Assembly: GCF_018977255.1 (NCBI RefSeq)
Contig: NW_024704742.1
Span: 64,854,001-64,918,000, forward strand
From: Callorhinchus milii
Taxonomy: Eukaryota
Length of the DNA stretch: 64,000 nt
Reading direction: 5' to 3'
The notes below the pieces were generated by a model. The model was given only the letters and a program-made list of their open reading frames with translations. It was not told the origin of the DNA and searched no databases. Below are positions 1 to 9,450 of the stretch, in pieces. Both the position numbers and the translations under genes were made by a program. The number at the start of each line of letters is the position of its first letter. The first letter of the stretch is position 1.

Positions 1-138
1 CATTTATGTACACAGTCAGATTATTGGTCAATTACAAAAAAACAAGCTCACAAATTTCATTCTTACCAAGTTAATAATTTGGGCAGTTACAAACCATCAC
101 GTTTTCATTTCAATATATATCACCTGAGAACATCTTAC

Positions 139-243
139 CATCTAACTTTGTGGGAGTGCTGGGGGGAGTGCGGGTGGGGGTGTGATCTGCAGGACGAGGC
201 TCTTCATTTGCTTTTACTTCCTCTGGTAGGTGATCTAAAAGCT
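139..243 (-). CDS. ADD1: alpha-adducin tail exon (ELLDHLPEEVKANEEPRPADHTPTRTPPSTPTKLD)
   Basis: 105 nt, phase 1/1; pyrimidine tract then cttaag acceptor; GATG|gtaag donor. PPSTPTKLD matches human PPSTPIKLE. A second in-phase acceptor (ttttag) would start the exon at 234. Confidence 0.85.
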
Positions 244-987
244 CTTAAGATTAGAAAAAGAGAGGGGGAAACAAAACAGTCTTTAAATTCAGCACAAGAC
301 GTTTAACCACTTGATGACAGCCACAGCATTTTTAACTATGCCTATAAAACAATGCAATTAGAATTTGTTATTTTTGACACTGCTATACACATGTTCCATC
401 CACAATTCTCAATACAATCTGGACATATGCAAAACAAAAAGTTGCCATGAAAATATTTGATCAATTCTTCAGCTATCTCAAATAGATTTTGGCTTAAGTT
501 TCTTCCCAAAAGCAATAAACACAGACCACAAAATGGTTTAAAACTATGCAAATTGGCAGGAAGCATGTAATCACTTAACTATATAATACCAGCTTTAATC
601 TTGGAAATACCATTACCTGAAAACATAGTTTATGACAACATGGACTCAAAGAATAATGTCACCATCACCTCTAATTCTACAACATGCAGAGAAAAATGAT
701 AAAAGAATCATTGCAAGGATCCAGAAAAAGCTTTATTTCTCATGGGATTGCAGCAAGGATATAGTTGTACAGCGGGAGGGAAGCCAAACCAAGAAAGAAA
801 CAATTCAACCGCAAATGAACCAACATACATTACAGCAACCAAAAATTAAGTAACAGCTGTTGGCAAGGATCAACGCATTGAAGGGACAAGAGGATTTGCA
901 AACCAAATGGAAGATCCCAATATTTTTTGATTAGAGAGAGGCGTGCTTCTTCATTCAAAGACAGGTGTTTAACCTGCTAGCCAATAC

Positions 988-1419
988 CTGAGGGGTCTGA
1001 TGAAGGAATACGATCTCCAGTAGGGCTAAGTGCCTTGACAACGGCACTGTGTAGTTGGTTGTGGAGAGACTCTTGAGTGTCCACCTGATTTAAGTTGAGG
1101 TGCCCGGAGACCTGGCCTACACTGTAGGGAGATTCCTGACCAGAAACCTGCTCATGATTTGAACGAGACTCGGCCTCTGTAGGATATCCTTCACTTGCGT
1201 GAGATTGTGTTTCAGTCACATTATCTTGGCTATGTATAGATTCATATATGGATGACTCATTCTGGCTTTGGACACTTTCAGCAGTCACTTGCTCCTGGGC
1301 ATGATGGCTTTGAGGTATAATTGCCACTTCATCTGGTTTGCCATCAGAGCATTCTTGGTGTGCTTGAGCGAACCCAATTTTTTCTGAGACCTCACCAATG
1401 TGGACTGCAGTTTCCTCAA
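988..1419 (-). CDS. ADD1: predicted lineage-specific 432-nt alpha-adducin exon (Ser/Glu/Gln/His-rich, 12-aa degenerate repeat)
   Basis: Lies within ORF 977..1441. Acceptor ttgtcttctctag|TT, donor TCAG|gtattg, phase 1/1, 144 codons; in frame with both flanking exons. No homology recognised. Confidence 0.6.
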
Positions 1420-2055
1420 CTAGAGAAGACAATAGGTTCAAGCAAATAAATGGAAGTGAAATTCACTGAAATTCACTTCCAAGATGGAAATGAACAACTC
1501 ATACAGATCAAATGCAGTTACAAGAATACAATATCAGATAAAAAGTTCAGATAGTATAGTAAAGTGTGGTAAAGGCCCCTACTAGATTGTTACTAAGACA
1601 AAATGTTAGTTCCATTATGAGGATATAATTACGGAGTAAATGCTACTGTAAGATTTATGCAAGATTTTTAAAATCTTCTTATGACACTTAAAAGAAACTG
1701 AAATTCTTCTCCTCTCCATCTTGTCTCATTAGAAACAATATACAAGTTTAGACAGTTAAACATCAGGAGCTGCAATGTGTTACAGAATAAACCACTGCTA
1801 AAGCAACCACTTATGATCGGCACTCAGCCAGGTTTACAATCTGTTCCTATGAAGGCGACATTCTAGAAAGCTTCAAATTAAGTTCAATGGGATCAGCATG
1901 TATGAAGACTGCATTGTTTCAATACAGATTAGGACTTGATGAAGACAATAGATGGCAAAAATAAGATGAAAGACAACACCCAACTCAATGGTAGAATTGC
2001 CAGCTACAAATGAAAACCATTTACAAGAAAATCTCAAGCAGATAAATAAAGAGAC

Positions 2056-2373
2056 AATAATAATAATAATCCTTGCATTTGATATAGCGCTTTTTTACGT
2101 CTTCTCAACGCCTCAAAGTGCTTCACAGAATATACTGTAAAGTGAATTGACTGTATATTTGTGGGCGAAACGCGATAGTCAATCGCGCACAGCAGTGTCC
2201 CACAAACAATCGTGGATTGAAAATGACCAATTTATTATTGTTTTGTTTTTTGGATGGATTATTAATAGGCGTGTAAAGTAAGGAAATTTGCCCAAGGTTT
2301 CACCCTGCCTGGAATTGAACCCAGGTGTCTCGCTTGCAAGGCGAGTGCTCTAACCACTGAGCTACAGGACTCC
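2056..2373 (-). mobile_element. full-length tRNA-derived SINE (tRNA-Ala-like head, Deu/L2-like tail, (TTA)n end)
   Basis: Minus-strand GGAGTCCTGTAGCTCAGTGGTTAGAGC head with A/B boxes, CCTTGGGCAA core-like segment and GCGCTATATCAAATGCAAGG(ATT)n tail; paralogous to 8054, 28372 and 54261. Confidence 0.9.
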
Positions 2374-3367
2374 ACAGTGTACCGTCAGCATCAGTAATGG
2401 AAAGGACAACAGCAAAATAATTTTAAAAAGTCACTCAATGAACAATTAAGAGATCCTTCCCTCAAAAGAAAGAATACTACACTTATCCATTTAGACCTAG
2501 CTATGAAATTAACCAATAATTCTGAAGTCACAAGGGCTGCACAGAAAAAACAGGATACCAAATACCAAAACATACTTCAGAAACCAAACAAACTGAAGGC
2601 ACCGAATTGTATCTCTATTTTACGTCACACATTTCTTATGCAAGACATTACATGAATTAGTGACATTAAACAATTCCCTTGATATGAAAATTCACTTGAT
2701 CAAAAATTGTTCCTACTTAAGCATTTAACAAATATATTTACTTTATTTGCACACAAAGTATTATGAACAGCAATTACATTCATCAAATTAGTTTAAGGCT
2801 GGTAAATATACTTGAGAAAAGTAACATTATGAATCTCAGCCATAGTATTGACAAACTGAATGTTTCAACTTAGTGAAAGACTAGAGTAAGATAGACAAAT
2901 CTCAAGAAGGGAAGGTAGTACCAGCAACGATATAGTGGGCGGAAGGGTTTCTTTCTGTGCTGTAAAAATTGAATGCTTCTAAAAATGGAACAAAATTAAA
3001 AATAGATTCTCATGGCTGGCATCTTTAATTTTACAGAAATTACTGTGCAGTAGTTGGAAAATCACTGATAGTGATGTAGCAGTGCCTAGTTTCAGGAGAA
3101 ATGCAATTCACACCATTGCAGAACAAGCGCGGCGAGTTTAAATCATACAGGTCTGTTCAAAGAACTCAGATGCGATTTACTTTTCATGCAACAAGAACAC
3201 AGGAACATAGAGGATTTGAAGACAGTTCATCCAAAGCTGTTATGTGAGCTGGCTTGAATACCAAAGTGTTAAACACATTGTCAAGCCTGGTCTGAAGAAG
3301 CAGATCTGAAGACACTGCATTCAAGACTGCAATTACCTAAAAAGCTTCACTAGTTATGGCCTATATG

Positions 3368-4302: not shown

Positions 4303-4456
4303 CTTCAGGTCCCTTCTGTTTGCGTTCGACTTCTTTGCGGTACTCTTCAAGTTCACGGTCTGTCAGTTTATTAAAAGGATTGGGTGCAGTGCTCACAATA
4401 ACTCGCGGTTGGTACTCTTTCTCAATGATTGCCTTTGATGCAGTCACTAATTCTCC
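4303..4456 (-). CDS. ADD1: alpha-adducin exon (GELVTASKAIIEKEYQPRVIVSTAPNPFNKLTDRELEEYRKEVERKQKGPE)
   Basis: 154 nt; ttag|GGA ... GAAG|gtatat; translation closely matches human ADD1. Confidence 0.95.
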
Positions 4457-5580: not shown

Positions 5581-6104
5581 TATAGTAACACTCACAGAAG
5601 TCACATCAGTCAGCTCCACCACATTTAATATGAATTATGTGAAGTATGAGATGAGTGGCAGACAAACTTGCTTAAATTGTATAAAATCCAATGTAATCAA
5701 TCTACACTGCGCACGTGTACTTCAATGCAGCTGGCAAGCGCGCATGCATCGACAGGTCAGAACTTCATTTCCTGCAATTCAATGCAGCTGGTAAATGCCA
5801 ATGTGGCGACAGATCAGGACTTCATTTCCCGCCCTCGTTTCAAACAGAAAATTGTATCTGCATGCTTCAATGGAGTCGATAAGTGCGCATGCGTTAACAT
5901 GTCAGAACTTCATTTCCCACAATTCATTGTAGCCAGGAAGTGTGGTAGCAGAGCTATAAGCTAGGAATGATTTGATTTATAAAATATGACTAGTGCAAAG
6001 AAATCTAAGTGATTTTTGGCTGGAAACTGAATGGGACTCAGGTACATGTACAACTTAGGCAATTATATGATTATAGAGATAAGATTTATTTGAATTTTAC
6101 TATA
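5581..6104. mobile_element. MITE, Tc1/mariner (Tigger-like) type, copy 1
   Basis: TA-tagtaacactcaca ... tttgaattttacta-TA imperfect TIRs; internal 57-bp repeats; colinear with 30399-30931. Confidence 0.75.
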
Positions 6105-8053
6105 TTCTTGATAGAATTTTTTATGTTCTTGTTCTATCGATGTGGCCTCCATAACATGCAAGTGGTAACATGAAGGTTTTAAGTTCTCCAGATAGAACGT
6201 CTCACATCCAGATCTAAACAATTTTGCTGAATTCTGACATGAAATGTGAGCAGCTCAGCTGAATGGCTTCCCTGACCCAGACAACCTATATATGCGCCCT
6301 TTCATTGTTTTACATAGATTGAAGATGTTCTCACACAAATTTTAATCCTTGCATTTGATATAGTGCCTTTCAAATCAGGAGAATAACAACTTGCCTTTAT
6401 ATAGGCCCCTTCACATGGGATAGCATCTTGGAGCACTTGAAGAATGTCTCAAAGTAATTCACAGAATTTTCTGTGAAGTGTTTTGGTTGTGTATTTTGTG
6501 ATTAATTGGAGGGGAAGAATCTTAGCTTGGGCAGGAAGAACTGCTGCCAGAACTACTGAATGCCTTACTTGTATTAATGAGCTAAATAAACCCTGAAGTT
6601 ATGTTTCTGCATTATCTCAAGCAAGGCACTGGTTAAAACTTTTTGAAAAAGTGCAAGATGACAAACGTGTTCTTGCTCCAATGGACTTTGAGACAAATGC
6701 TCTAGCACCATATGATACTGAAGCCTCATCAGTACCTGGAAATACAAAGGTTTTAATCCACAAATTAAAGAGATTCCAGTTGCACTCTCTTTTCCCTGGT
6801 CACACGAGAAATGCAGCCACTTCAACAAAAGGCATTTCACAACACAAACCAAGATTCTCCTGTGGTACATTATAATAATCATTGGATTTAATTTAGAGCC
6901 CTATCATTTCGTTGAGATTTCCCAAAGCCCTTCAAAGGATATACTGTAAAGTGGACTTACTGCATGTATGGATGAATCAATTAGCTGCAACTATACCAAT
7001 ATTGGTTTGTTTTCAAATAGAACTGCAAACCAAATTCTAAATATTGACTATTGTGTGGAGATAAAAAAAAAGTCATTTTGTCCTCAAGGGACAAAGTCTG
7101 GTAGCAGGGTTTACAAAACCTAAAGCCACTTGACAGAGCATTTTAATTTACTGCACCATGTGAATATCTTGGTGGATCAAACCCATACAAAAGATAATAC
7201 ACATTGGAAAAAAAATACCAAAACATACCACCAAAAAAAATATTGGAAATAGTAGTCTCCAAAACGTTTGAGAACTTCCTTACCAAAACTGTGCCAATAA
7301 AAGAATGAATACCTAATCTGTGCAAGATTCTCATGATATAAGTAAATATGAAACATCTGGGAGAATCACTTATATCCTAATTTTATCCTGGCTGACAATG
7401 AGCCTAACCCAAAGGTAAACAAAGGATAAGCAAGCTTTAAAAAAAAGGCAGTCCAGGGACAAGTTGTTAGAAAGGTTCATTGCATTTTAAAATTTATAGG
7501 ATCATATTTACAGACAAATCTGTTAAAGTGATCACCTAACCTCGTTTGGTCACCATGCGTTCATCCCTAATATTACTTGCATATACTATTTATTTTGACT
7601 GTTGGAATGGAATAAAACAAGAACATGATGAATAAAAGGTTTTGAAGACCCAAGTTCATTAAAAATAAACCTTGAATGAGCACAAAATACAAGTAATTTA
7701 ACCATATTAACGCTATATTAACCCTGCATACAGCTGTGAAGATAAAACAGTTCTCACACACTCAAATAAATCCAAATATTTNAAAAAAATAAGAACCATT
7801 ATGTCAGAGATGCACTATGGAACACAAGTGATTGCACCAAATCCAGTTTAACATTTGAAGCGATAAAATAAGCAAATAATTTTCATACAAGTTCTCCAGA
7901 TAGTAAGATTATTTCTCCTAATAAAATTATGTAAAAGAAACACATACTTATGAATATCATTAAAAGGTACTCACTTAATAAAAAAAATTCTGTTGCCAGA
8001 TTAAATGGAACATTTGCTAAATTAGCAATATTAGTCAATGAAATGCAATCAAT

Positions 8054-9204: not shown

Positions 9205-9450
9205 TCTTCAGATGAGATGTTAAATTGAGGTCCTATCTGCCTGTTCAGGTAGAAATTGAGGTTCCCATGGCACTGTTCAAAAAAGACAGTTTCTCTCAGT
9301 CTCTTGGCCAACAATCTTTCAGATATTATTGGTTATTCACTTCATGGCTGTGCAAAAATTGACTGCTGTGTTTACCTCAAACACACAACACTACACTTTA
9401 CAGTAATTAAAGTGCTTGGGAGACATTTTAACTATATCAAATGCAAGGAT
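9205..9450 (+). mobile_element. old DeuSINE-type SINE fragment
   Basis: gatgagatgttaaattgaggtcctatctgcctgttcaggt...cccatggcact Deu-domain-like segment followed by a ctatatcaaatgcaagg tail. Confidence 0.75.

What the first reader, a model, noticed from the sequence alone, without database searches (positions are those of the whole stretch)
988..1419. Unrecognised 432-nt in-frame exon inserting a 12-aa periodic domain into the alpha-adducin tail
Seen: a stop-free 144-codon block with a good acceptor and a CAG|gtattg donor. It is phase 1/1, exactly as needed between the ...KGPE exon (4303) and the ELLD... exon (243). The peptide is periodic: QSHHAQEQVTA / ESVQSQNESSIY / ESIHSQDNVTET / QSHASEGYPTEA / ESRSNHEQVSGQ / ESPYSVGQVSGH / LNLNQVDTQ / ESLHNQ, i.e. 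an old 36-nt tandem repeat. Known (recalled): human ADD1 joins the two flanking exons directly. Inference: a lineage-specific cassette that lengthens the disordered tail in front of the spectrin/actin-binding MARCKS-related domain. If the weak donor is skipped, the frame ends GIG-stop at 977, giving an isoform without that domain.
Basis: partly seen in the sequence, partly recalled or inferred. Interest (0 to 1): 0.72.

Follow-up and report, generated by a model that had tools for sequence, protein, structure and literature searches.

The report
Ancient optional alpha-adducin tail exon
This is a real, optionally spliced exon of the elephant shark alpha-adducin gene that databases already annotate; sharks, rays, coelacanth, turtles, crocodilians and birds share it, and it adds a predicted floppy spacer ending in a short conserved helix that likely binds a still unknown partner.

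Summary
The 432-nt exon (988-1419, minus strand) is real and in frame. Both predicted junctions and the skipping junction appear in public RNA-like assemblies and not in the DNA-like run.

It is not unrecognised: the peptide is 100% identical to part of RefSeq/UniProt alpha-adducin isoforms of Callorhinchus milii. It is not lineage-specific: same-position inserts of 125-150 residues are annotated in sharks, rays, coelacanth, turtles, crocodilians and birds, with skipping isoforms too.

The 12-residue periodicity is weak (p about 0.03) and significant only in cartilaginous fish. What is conserved across clades is the C-terminal part, a 13-residue amphipathic stretch (LHNQLHSAVVKAL), the only predicted helix in the exon.

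Best reading: a regulated cassette that lengthens the disordered tail and likely adds a short binding helix. One run weakly hints at an intronic poly(A) site 275 nt past the donor. The one solved-structure ADD1 chain lacks the exon; loss in mammals is inferred, not shown. No paper on the exon or motif turned up in ten searches, and no earlier scan note covers it. Modest interest.

The parts
988..1419 (-). Cassette exon of alpha-adducin (ADD1), 432 nt, phase 1/1, adds 144 residues
   Evidence: junctions; annotated isoforms
1028..1066 (-). Conserved amphipathic stretch LHNQLHSAVVKAL (residues 118-130 of the exon peptide), the only predicted helix; likely a binding motif (inferred)
1094..1312 (-). 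Degenerate 12-residue (36-nt) periodic Ser/Glu/Gln/His-rich spacer, predicted disordered; limits approximate
1420..1450 (-). Polypyrimidine tract and AG acceptor
   Evidence: joint at L004 6419>9303
982..987 (-). Donor GTATTG; the read-through residues S-G-I are also seen in bird-like and crocodilian-like genomic ORFs
971..981 (-). Read-through stop TAG (977-979) and the place where sharks and rays are inferred to use a second donor 15 nt downstream; here it reads TT in phase 1
713..737 (-). Candidate intronic poly(A) signal: AATAAA at 737-732; one RNA-like contig stops 19 nt downstream at the C of a CA, before a U-rich stretch (weak hint, one run)
4303..4456 (-). Upstream exon ending ...RKQKGPE, phase 1
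138..243 (-). Downstream exon (ELLD...TPPSTPTKLD); its donor joins the last, MARCKS-bearing exon outside the window
   Evidence: joint L004 631>5139

Best explanation
This is an alternatively spliced exon of alpha-adducin, shared by cartilaginous fish, coelacanth and several reptile and bird lineages, whose inclusion adds a predicted disordered spacer ending in a short conserved amphipathic helix that likely docks on a protein partner. Shown: the exon is in frame, is both spliced in and skipped, and has same-position counterparts across jawed vertebrates that share the C-terminal motif. Predicted: disorder plus one helix. Inferred: inclusion is regulated by tissue or state; the spacer moves the MARCKS-related spectrin/actin-binding end about 144 residues further from the oligomeric head and neck; and the helix folds on binding and gives the long isoform an extra anchor that the skipped isoform lacks. 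The partner is unknown. The 12-residue repeat is inferred to be a trace of how the spacer grew in cartilaginous fish, not a folded repeat domain.
For: Splicing. The upstream junction is seen in 6 of 7 RNA-like runs laid (joints in X5, X6, X7, X9; loose ends matching the upstream exon in X1, X8). The downstream junction is seen in 2 of 7 (X6, X1). X6 holds both on one contig. The skip junction is seen in 7 of 7. The DNA-like run X11 covers the stretch in one piece with no joint.

Annotation. Included and skipped isoforms exist for the chimaera, sharks, rays, a turtle and a tinamou.

Homology. A profile from cartilaginous fish scores 12 of 12 bony-vertebrate inserts at 20-32 bits, with 0 of 200 shuffles reaching that in each. 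The signal lies in the C-terminal part: 7 of 7 beat all shuffles there and none of 7 does so in the N-terminal part. The motif pattern is present in 148 of 162 insert-bearing proteins. Block 121-132 is the most conserved (0.86 within cartilaginous fish, 0.49 across clades), and substitutions are conservative (L/F, S/T, V/I, K/R).

Structure. AlphaFold2 gives one helix at 118-130, block pLDDT 83, in an otherwise coil model.

Background. The MARCKS-related tail is needed for spectrin-actin assembly (PMC5976920, passages).
Against: No partner, binding assay or proteomic evidence. The inclusion joints have only 22-30 letters on the short side, just under the tool's 31-letter bar, and the runs are RNA by guess. 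Tissues are not on record and contig depth does not measure expression, so regulation is not shown. The spacer is less conserved than the disordered part of the last exon (42-64% against 62-72% within cartilaginous fish). 11 annotated isoforms of bamboo and epaulette sharks include a shortened exon without the motif. The exon model has mean pLDDT 55 from 8 sequences. dN/dS was not computed.
Confidence: 0.6

Rival explanations
1. Pure spacer, like Big tau exon 4a: only length and disorder matter, and the conserved 3' part reflects splicing-enhancer constraint near a weak donor, not a protein motif.
For: Length is stable (125-150 residues) while the N-terminal 110 residues show no significant cross-clade similarity. 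The donor is non-consensus. Exon 4a of MAPT is described as size-conserved with low sequence conservation (PMC9755724, abstract).
Against: Motif changes are conservative at the amino-acid level and keep an amphipathic pattern. The 12 codons nearest the donor are poorly conserved across clades (0.13) while the motif upstream is at 0.49.
Confidence: 0.22
2. The exon's main role is as a composite terminal exon: the donor is ignored, translation stops at 977 and the RNA is cleaved near 713, giving an adducin that ends in the helix and lacks the MARCKS-related domain.
For: An X2 contig stops at window 713, 19 nt after the only AATAAA in the 744-nt downstream intron. Five Tinamus models end S-G-I-M-N-M-V right after the donor. 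MARCKS-less ADD1 isoforms are biologically active in mouse (bioRxiv 10.1101/2020.12.24.424022, passages).
Against: One run only. That contig also runs unspliced into the upstream intron and shows no upstream junction. X1 covers the same intron without a break. Contigs cannot show RNA ends. The Tinamus contig is short (181 kb), so its models may be truncated. 228 of 235 motif-bearing proteins continue into the next exon.
Confidence: 0.1
3. The inserts of cartilaginous fish and bony vertebrates arose independently by exonisation in the same intron.
For: N-terminal parts do not align significantly. Periodicity is significant only in cartilaginous fish.
Against: Same position, similar length, and a shared C-terminal motif of about 30 residues that beats all shuffles. 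The read-through residues S-G-I are shared.
Confidence: 0.04
4. Tolerated splicing noise with no function.
For: The skip joint has higher contig depth than the inclusion joint in all 4 runs (depth is a poor measure).
Against: An open frame and a conserved motif from chimaera to birds.
Confidence: 0.04

Closest known systems
Alpha-adducin (ADD1) isoforms X1, X2, X4 of Callorhinchus milii (XP_042198884.1, XP_007903447.2, XP_042198900.1; UniProt V9K8F0, V9KB00)
   Same: Identical peptide and identical junctions; the skip isoform is annotated too (X3, V9K938).
   Different: None in sequence. The records give no function, motif or evolutionary note.
ADD3 (gamma-adducin) cassette exon 14
   Same: Frame-preserving cassette in the tail between neck and MARCKS-related domain (PMC8373271, passages), predicted to add a small coiled motif (PMC5976920, passages). 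All three adducin genes of this genome have a phase-1 intron after the same R-K-Q-x-G helix.
   Different: 96 nt against 432 nt. The exon profile found nothing in the fetched tail regions of the two paralogues. QKI control of this exon was not tested.
ADD1 exon 15 (34-nt stop exon, MBNL2-regulated isoform switch)
   Same: Same gene; changes the tail; present downstream in this genome and can combine with the cassette (P0015).
   Different: A separate exon that truncates the protein; this exon lengthens it in frame.
Big tau exon 4a (MAPT)
   Same: Large optional insert in a cytoskeletal protein, size-conserved with low sequence conservation (PMC9755724, abstract).
   Different: Unrelated gene. 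The authors propose independent origins for 4a, whereas this exon shares one conserved motif across clades, which points to a single origin.

Membership tests
Alpha-adducin (ADD1) gene | Class II aldolase-like head, neck, and terminal MARCKS-related domain, closest to ADD1 | tested here: met
   PF00596 and source names; 1164 bits to Adducin 1 against 636 to beta-adducin of PDB 8iah; last exon with KFRTPSF
Frame-preserving cassette exon | AG/GT ends, length a multiple of 3, no stop | tested here: met
Frame-preserving cassette exon | Inclusion and skipping junctions in transcripts, absent from DNA | tested here: met
   upstream 6 of 7, downstream 2 of 7, skip 7 of 7 RNA-like runs, none in X11; short sides 22-30 letters for inclusion joints
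Frame-preserving cassette exon | Tissue- or stage-regulated inclusion | tested here: inconclusive
   X1 shows both inclusion junctions and X2 none, but tissues are not on record and contigs give no levels
Lineage-specific exon | Absent outside the lineage | tested here: not met
Tandem-repeat protein domain | Significant period with recognisable copies, kept in orthologues | tested here: inconclusive
   family-wise p<0.05 at lag 12 in 6 of 13 cartilaginous fish and 0 of 12 bony vertebrates; no TRF array; predicted coil
Helical binding motif in a disordered region (MoRF) | Island of conservation with amphipathic helix propensity inside disorder | tested here: met
   (hydrophobic moment ranks 8 of 131 13-mers)
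Helical binding motif in a disordered region (MoRF) | Binds a folded partner | not tested
   No partner known; no complex prediction was obtained
Homologue of ADD3 exon 14 | Sequence similarity to the paralogue's cassette | tested here: inconclusive
   No profile hit in the fetched paralogue regions; no ADD3 cassette found by my strict scan, so no direct comparison
Composite terminal exon with intronic polyadenylation | Spliced transcripts ending downstream of a poly(A) signal | tested here: inconclusive
   One contig end at 713 after AATAAA, upstream side unspliced

The most novel reading that the evidence does not exclude
The ancestor of jawed vertebrates had a third tail module in alpha-adducin: a His-x3-His amphipathic helix on a long spacer, switched three ways (skipped, included, or made the new C-terminus by intronic polyadenylation). 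It anchors the spectrin-actin junction to an undiscovered partner in particular tissues, and mammals have lost it.
Probability: 0.25. Interest if true: 0.55.

Novelty: new member of a known kind. Interest (0 to 1): 0.3.

Why it matters
Adducin caps actin filaments and recruits spectrin through its tail, and tail splicing changes its behaviour in neurons, heart and cancer cells. A conserved helix kept from chimaera to birds in an optional exon points to an interaction that mammal-centred work would have missed if the exon is indeed gone from mammals. Chicken cells would make it directly testable. It does not change how adducin or splicing is understood, and the exon is already in public gene models.

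Tried and rejected
Pfam on the exon peptide: two chance-level hits below cut-off. ESM Atlas by features: no usable hit. Profile against 1.84 billion representatives: 6 hits, all this exon (one named ADD1, five unnamed contig ORFs that resemble skate, crocodilian or bird versions by sequence); no other protein family at E<=0.001.

The exon's DNA is single-copy in the genome. No motif was found in the fetched tail regions of the two paralogous adducin genes. A loose amphipathic look-alike in their last exons was not supported by the profile and was dropped.

Full-length AlphaFold model failed (mean pLDDT 29.5) and was not used, beyond noting that 702-714 was again the only helix after residue 580. 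A complex prediction of the helix with the adducin head was not run, so binding to the head is untested.

Mammals, ray-finned fish, amphibians and squamates did not appear, but only 120 of 2484 and 120 of 360 hits are listed, so this is no evidence of absence. dN/dS could not be computed because no orthologous DNA was available.

In one search two of the 12 test sequences were mis-cut and included the head domain. The test was redone with correct cuts on 7 sequences. Splicing-factor motif counts were uninformative: one UGCAUG at +300 and one ACUAAY at -191. The header lists no holder on record as RNA; the runs are RNA by guess. I laid 7 of 10 RNA-like and 1 of 4 other runs. Earlier scan notes were unrelated.

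Full report
**Observation.** The block 988-1419 on the minus strand is 432 nt and stop-free, with an AG acceptor and a CAG|GTATTG donor. It keeps the frame between exon 4303-4456 and exon 138-243. Read-through ends G-I-G-stop at 977. It is the only candidate that a simple scan finds in the 4,059-nt intron, it is GC-richer than its flanks (47% against 33-35%), and it is single-copy. The last exon with the MARCKS-related domain lies outside the window at G000:C1:64849303-64849632.

**It is spliced.** I laid 7 of the 10 RNA-like runs and 1 of the 4 other runs listed. The upstream inclusion junction appears in 6 of 7 RNA-like runs (joints in X5, X6, X7, X9; loose ends matching the upstream exon in X1, X8). 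The downstream inclusion junction appears in 2 of 7 (X6, X1). One X6 contig holds the whole exon with both junctions. The skipping junction appears in 7 of 7. X11 covers the stretch in one piece without a joint. Caveats: the runs are RNA by guess, the inclusion joints have 22-30 letters on the short side (under the tool's 31-letter bar), and contig depth is not expression. X1 shows inclusion and X2 does not, which fits regulation but does not show it.

**It is annotated.** The peptide is 100% identical to part of alpha-adducin isoform X2 of Callorhinchus milii. Five of eight members of that cluster carry it, including RefSeq X1, X2, X4 and UniProt V9K8F0 and V9KB00. The skip form is annotated as X3 and V9K938.

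**It is ancient.** Shark versions are 51-64% identical and skate and ray versions 42-45%. A search with exon plus flanks returned isoforms with a 125-136-residue insert at the same place in coelacanth, turtles, crocodilians and birds. A cartilaginous-fish profile scores 12 of 12 of these at 20-32 bits, above all 200 shuffles each (two sequences mis-cut there). Split in two, the C-terminal part beats all shuffles in 7 of 7 and the N-terminal 110 residues in none of 7. Skipping isoforms are annotated in sharks, rays, a turtle and a tinamou, so the optional status looks ancient as well. The solved-structure chain Adducin 1 of 8iah (pig, recalled) goes from residue 588 to 597 across this point with no insert, and the two major mouse isoforms of 732 and 636 residues differ by exon 15 only (bioRxiv 10.1101/2020.12.24.424022, passages). 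That human ADD1 joins the flanks directly is recalled. No mammal, ray-finned fish, amphibian or squamate appeared, but only 120 of 2484 and 120 of 360 hits were listed. Loss in mammals is an inference.

**The repeat.** Lag 12 has 21 identities against 10.1 expected, family-wise p 0.034. It is significant in 6 of 13 cartilaginous fish, which are related and not independent, and in 0 of 12 bony vertebrates, although lag 12 is the best, non-significant lag in all four birds. At DNA level the best adjacent pair is 21/36 and TRF sees nothing. An old 36-nt duplication is plausible. A repeat domain is not: the region is predicted coil.

**The conserved element.** The near-invariant columns cluster at the C-terminal end: D, S, H, H, A, V, K, A, L, D in 23-25 of 25 species. 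The pattern [LFV][HR][ST]A[VI][VI][KR]AL occurs in 148 of 162 insert-bearing proteins. Of the 14 misses, 3 have one substitution and 11 are shortened-exon isoforms of bamboo and epaulette sharks. AlphaFold2 on the 8-sequence alignment predicts one helix, residues 118-130, block pLDDT 83 against a mean of 55. It is amphipathic (rank 8 of 131 windows) and carries two histidines four residues apart. Nothing outside this exon matched the profile among 1.84 billion representatives, nor in the fetched tail regions of the two paralogues.

**3' end of the exon.** Many shark and ray isoforms carry five more residues (such as G-I-G-Q-Q) that match the chimaera's first intronic codons G-I-G-stop-Q. Heterodontus has models with and without them. 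I infer a second donor 15 nt downstream in sharks and rays that is blocked in the chimaera. One X2 contig stops at window 713, 19 nt after the only AATAAA of the 744-nt downstream intron, at a CA followed by a U-rich stretch. It is one run, unspliced upstream, and X1 reads through, so this is a weak hint. Five Tinamus models stop just after the donor, on a short contig.

**How it most likely works.** Shown: an optional in-frame exon with a conserved C-terminal motif. Predicted: spacer plus helix. Inferred: regulated inclusion lengthens the tether between the oligomeric head and neck and the MARCKS-related end, which is needed for spectrin-actin assembly (PMC5976920, passages), and adds a helix that folds on a partner (0.6). 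Rivals are a pure spacer with RNA-level constraint (0.22), a mainly terminal exon (0.1), independent origins (0.04) and noise (0.04).

**Comparison and novelty.** Tail cassettes are known in adducins: ADD3 exon 14, 96 nt and QKI-controlled (PMC8373271, passages), and the ADD1 stop exon, with an MBNL2-linked isoform switch (PMC13044900, passages). Big tau exon 4a is the closest analogue for a size-conserved spacer (PMC9755724, abstract and outline). Ten searches gave no listing that describes this exon or motif, and the literal motif search found 0 papers. Other papers were seen as listings only, no supplements were read, and the library lacks most subscription journals. Verdict: a real, database-annotated but apparently undescribed member of a known kind. 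Interest 0.3.

Noticed in passing
window ~2057-2380 (-): tRNA-Ala-like head (ARAGORN 2301-2370) with an (AAT)n end in the upstream intron; thousands of RNA-like contigs pile on it. Likely a tRNA-derived SINE (inferred).
   Followed up: partly
L002 9190-9223 (-): 34-nt stop exon giving ...GAGCAKEYLLP, the counterpart of mouse Add1 exon 15; V9KB00 combines it with the cassette exon. No joint to it was among those shown.
   Followed up: partly
L007 ~9210-9240 (-) (G000:C7): The last exon of the ADD3-like paralogue changes frame just before the lysine-rich MARCKS-related stretch; probably an assembly indel in a short A run.
   Followed up: no
P0052-P0055, P0058-P0063, P0070; P0048, P0056, P0057, P0067: Bamboo and epaulette shark models end the exon early at ...HNQ, dropping the helix, while several ray models start it late at DNQD..., keeping the helix: internal splice sites at about the same point of the exon.
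   Followed up: no
window, upstream part of the gene (P0010, P0011): RefSeq isoforms X1 and X4 are 31 and 29 residues longer than X2 upstream of the cassette, matching two optional neck segments seen in shark isoforms.
   Followed up: no
L004 4000-6800: Run X11 differs from the assembly at 7 single letters and 1 insertion, all intronic, none in the 432-nt exon; too few to be significant.
   Followed up: no
L002 ~1800-2270 and ~5830-6300 (-): ORF fragments downstream of and inside the gene look like decayed LINE reverse-transcriptase tails (family assignment from recall).
   Followed up: no
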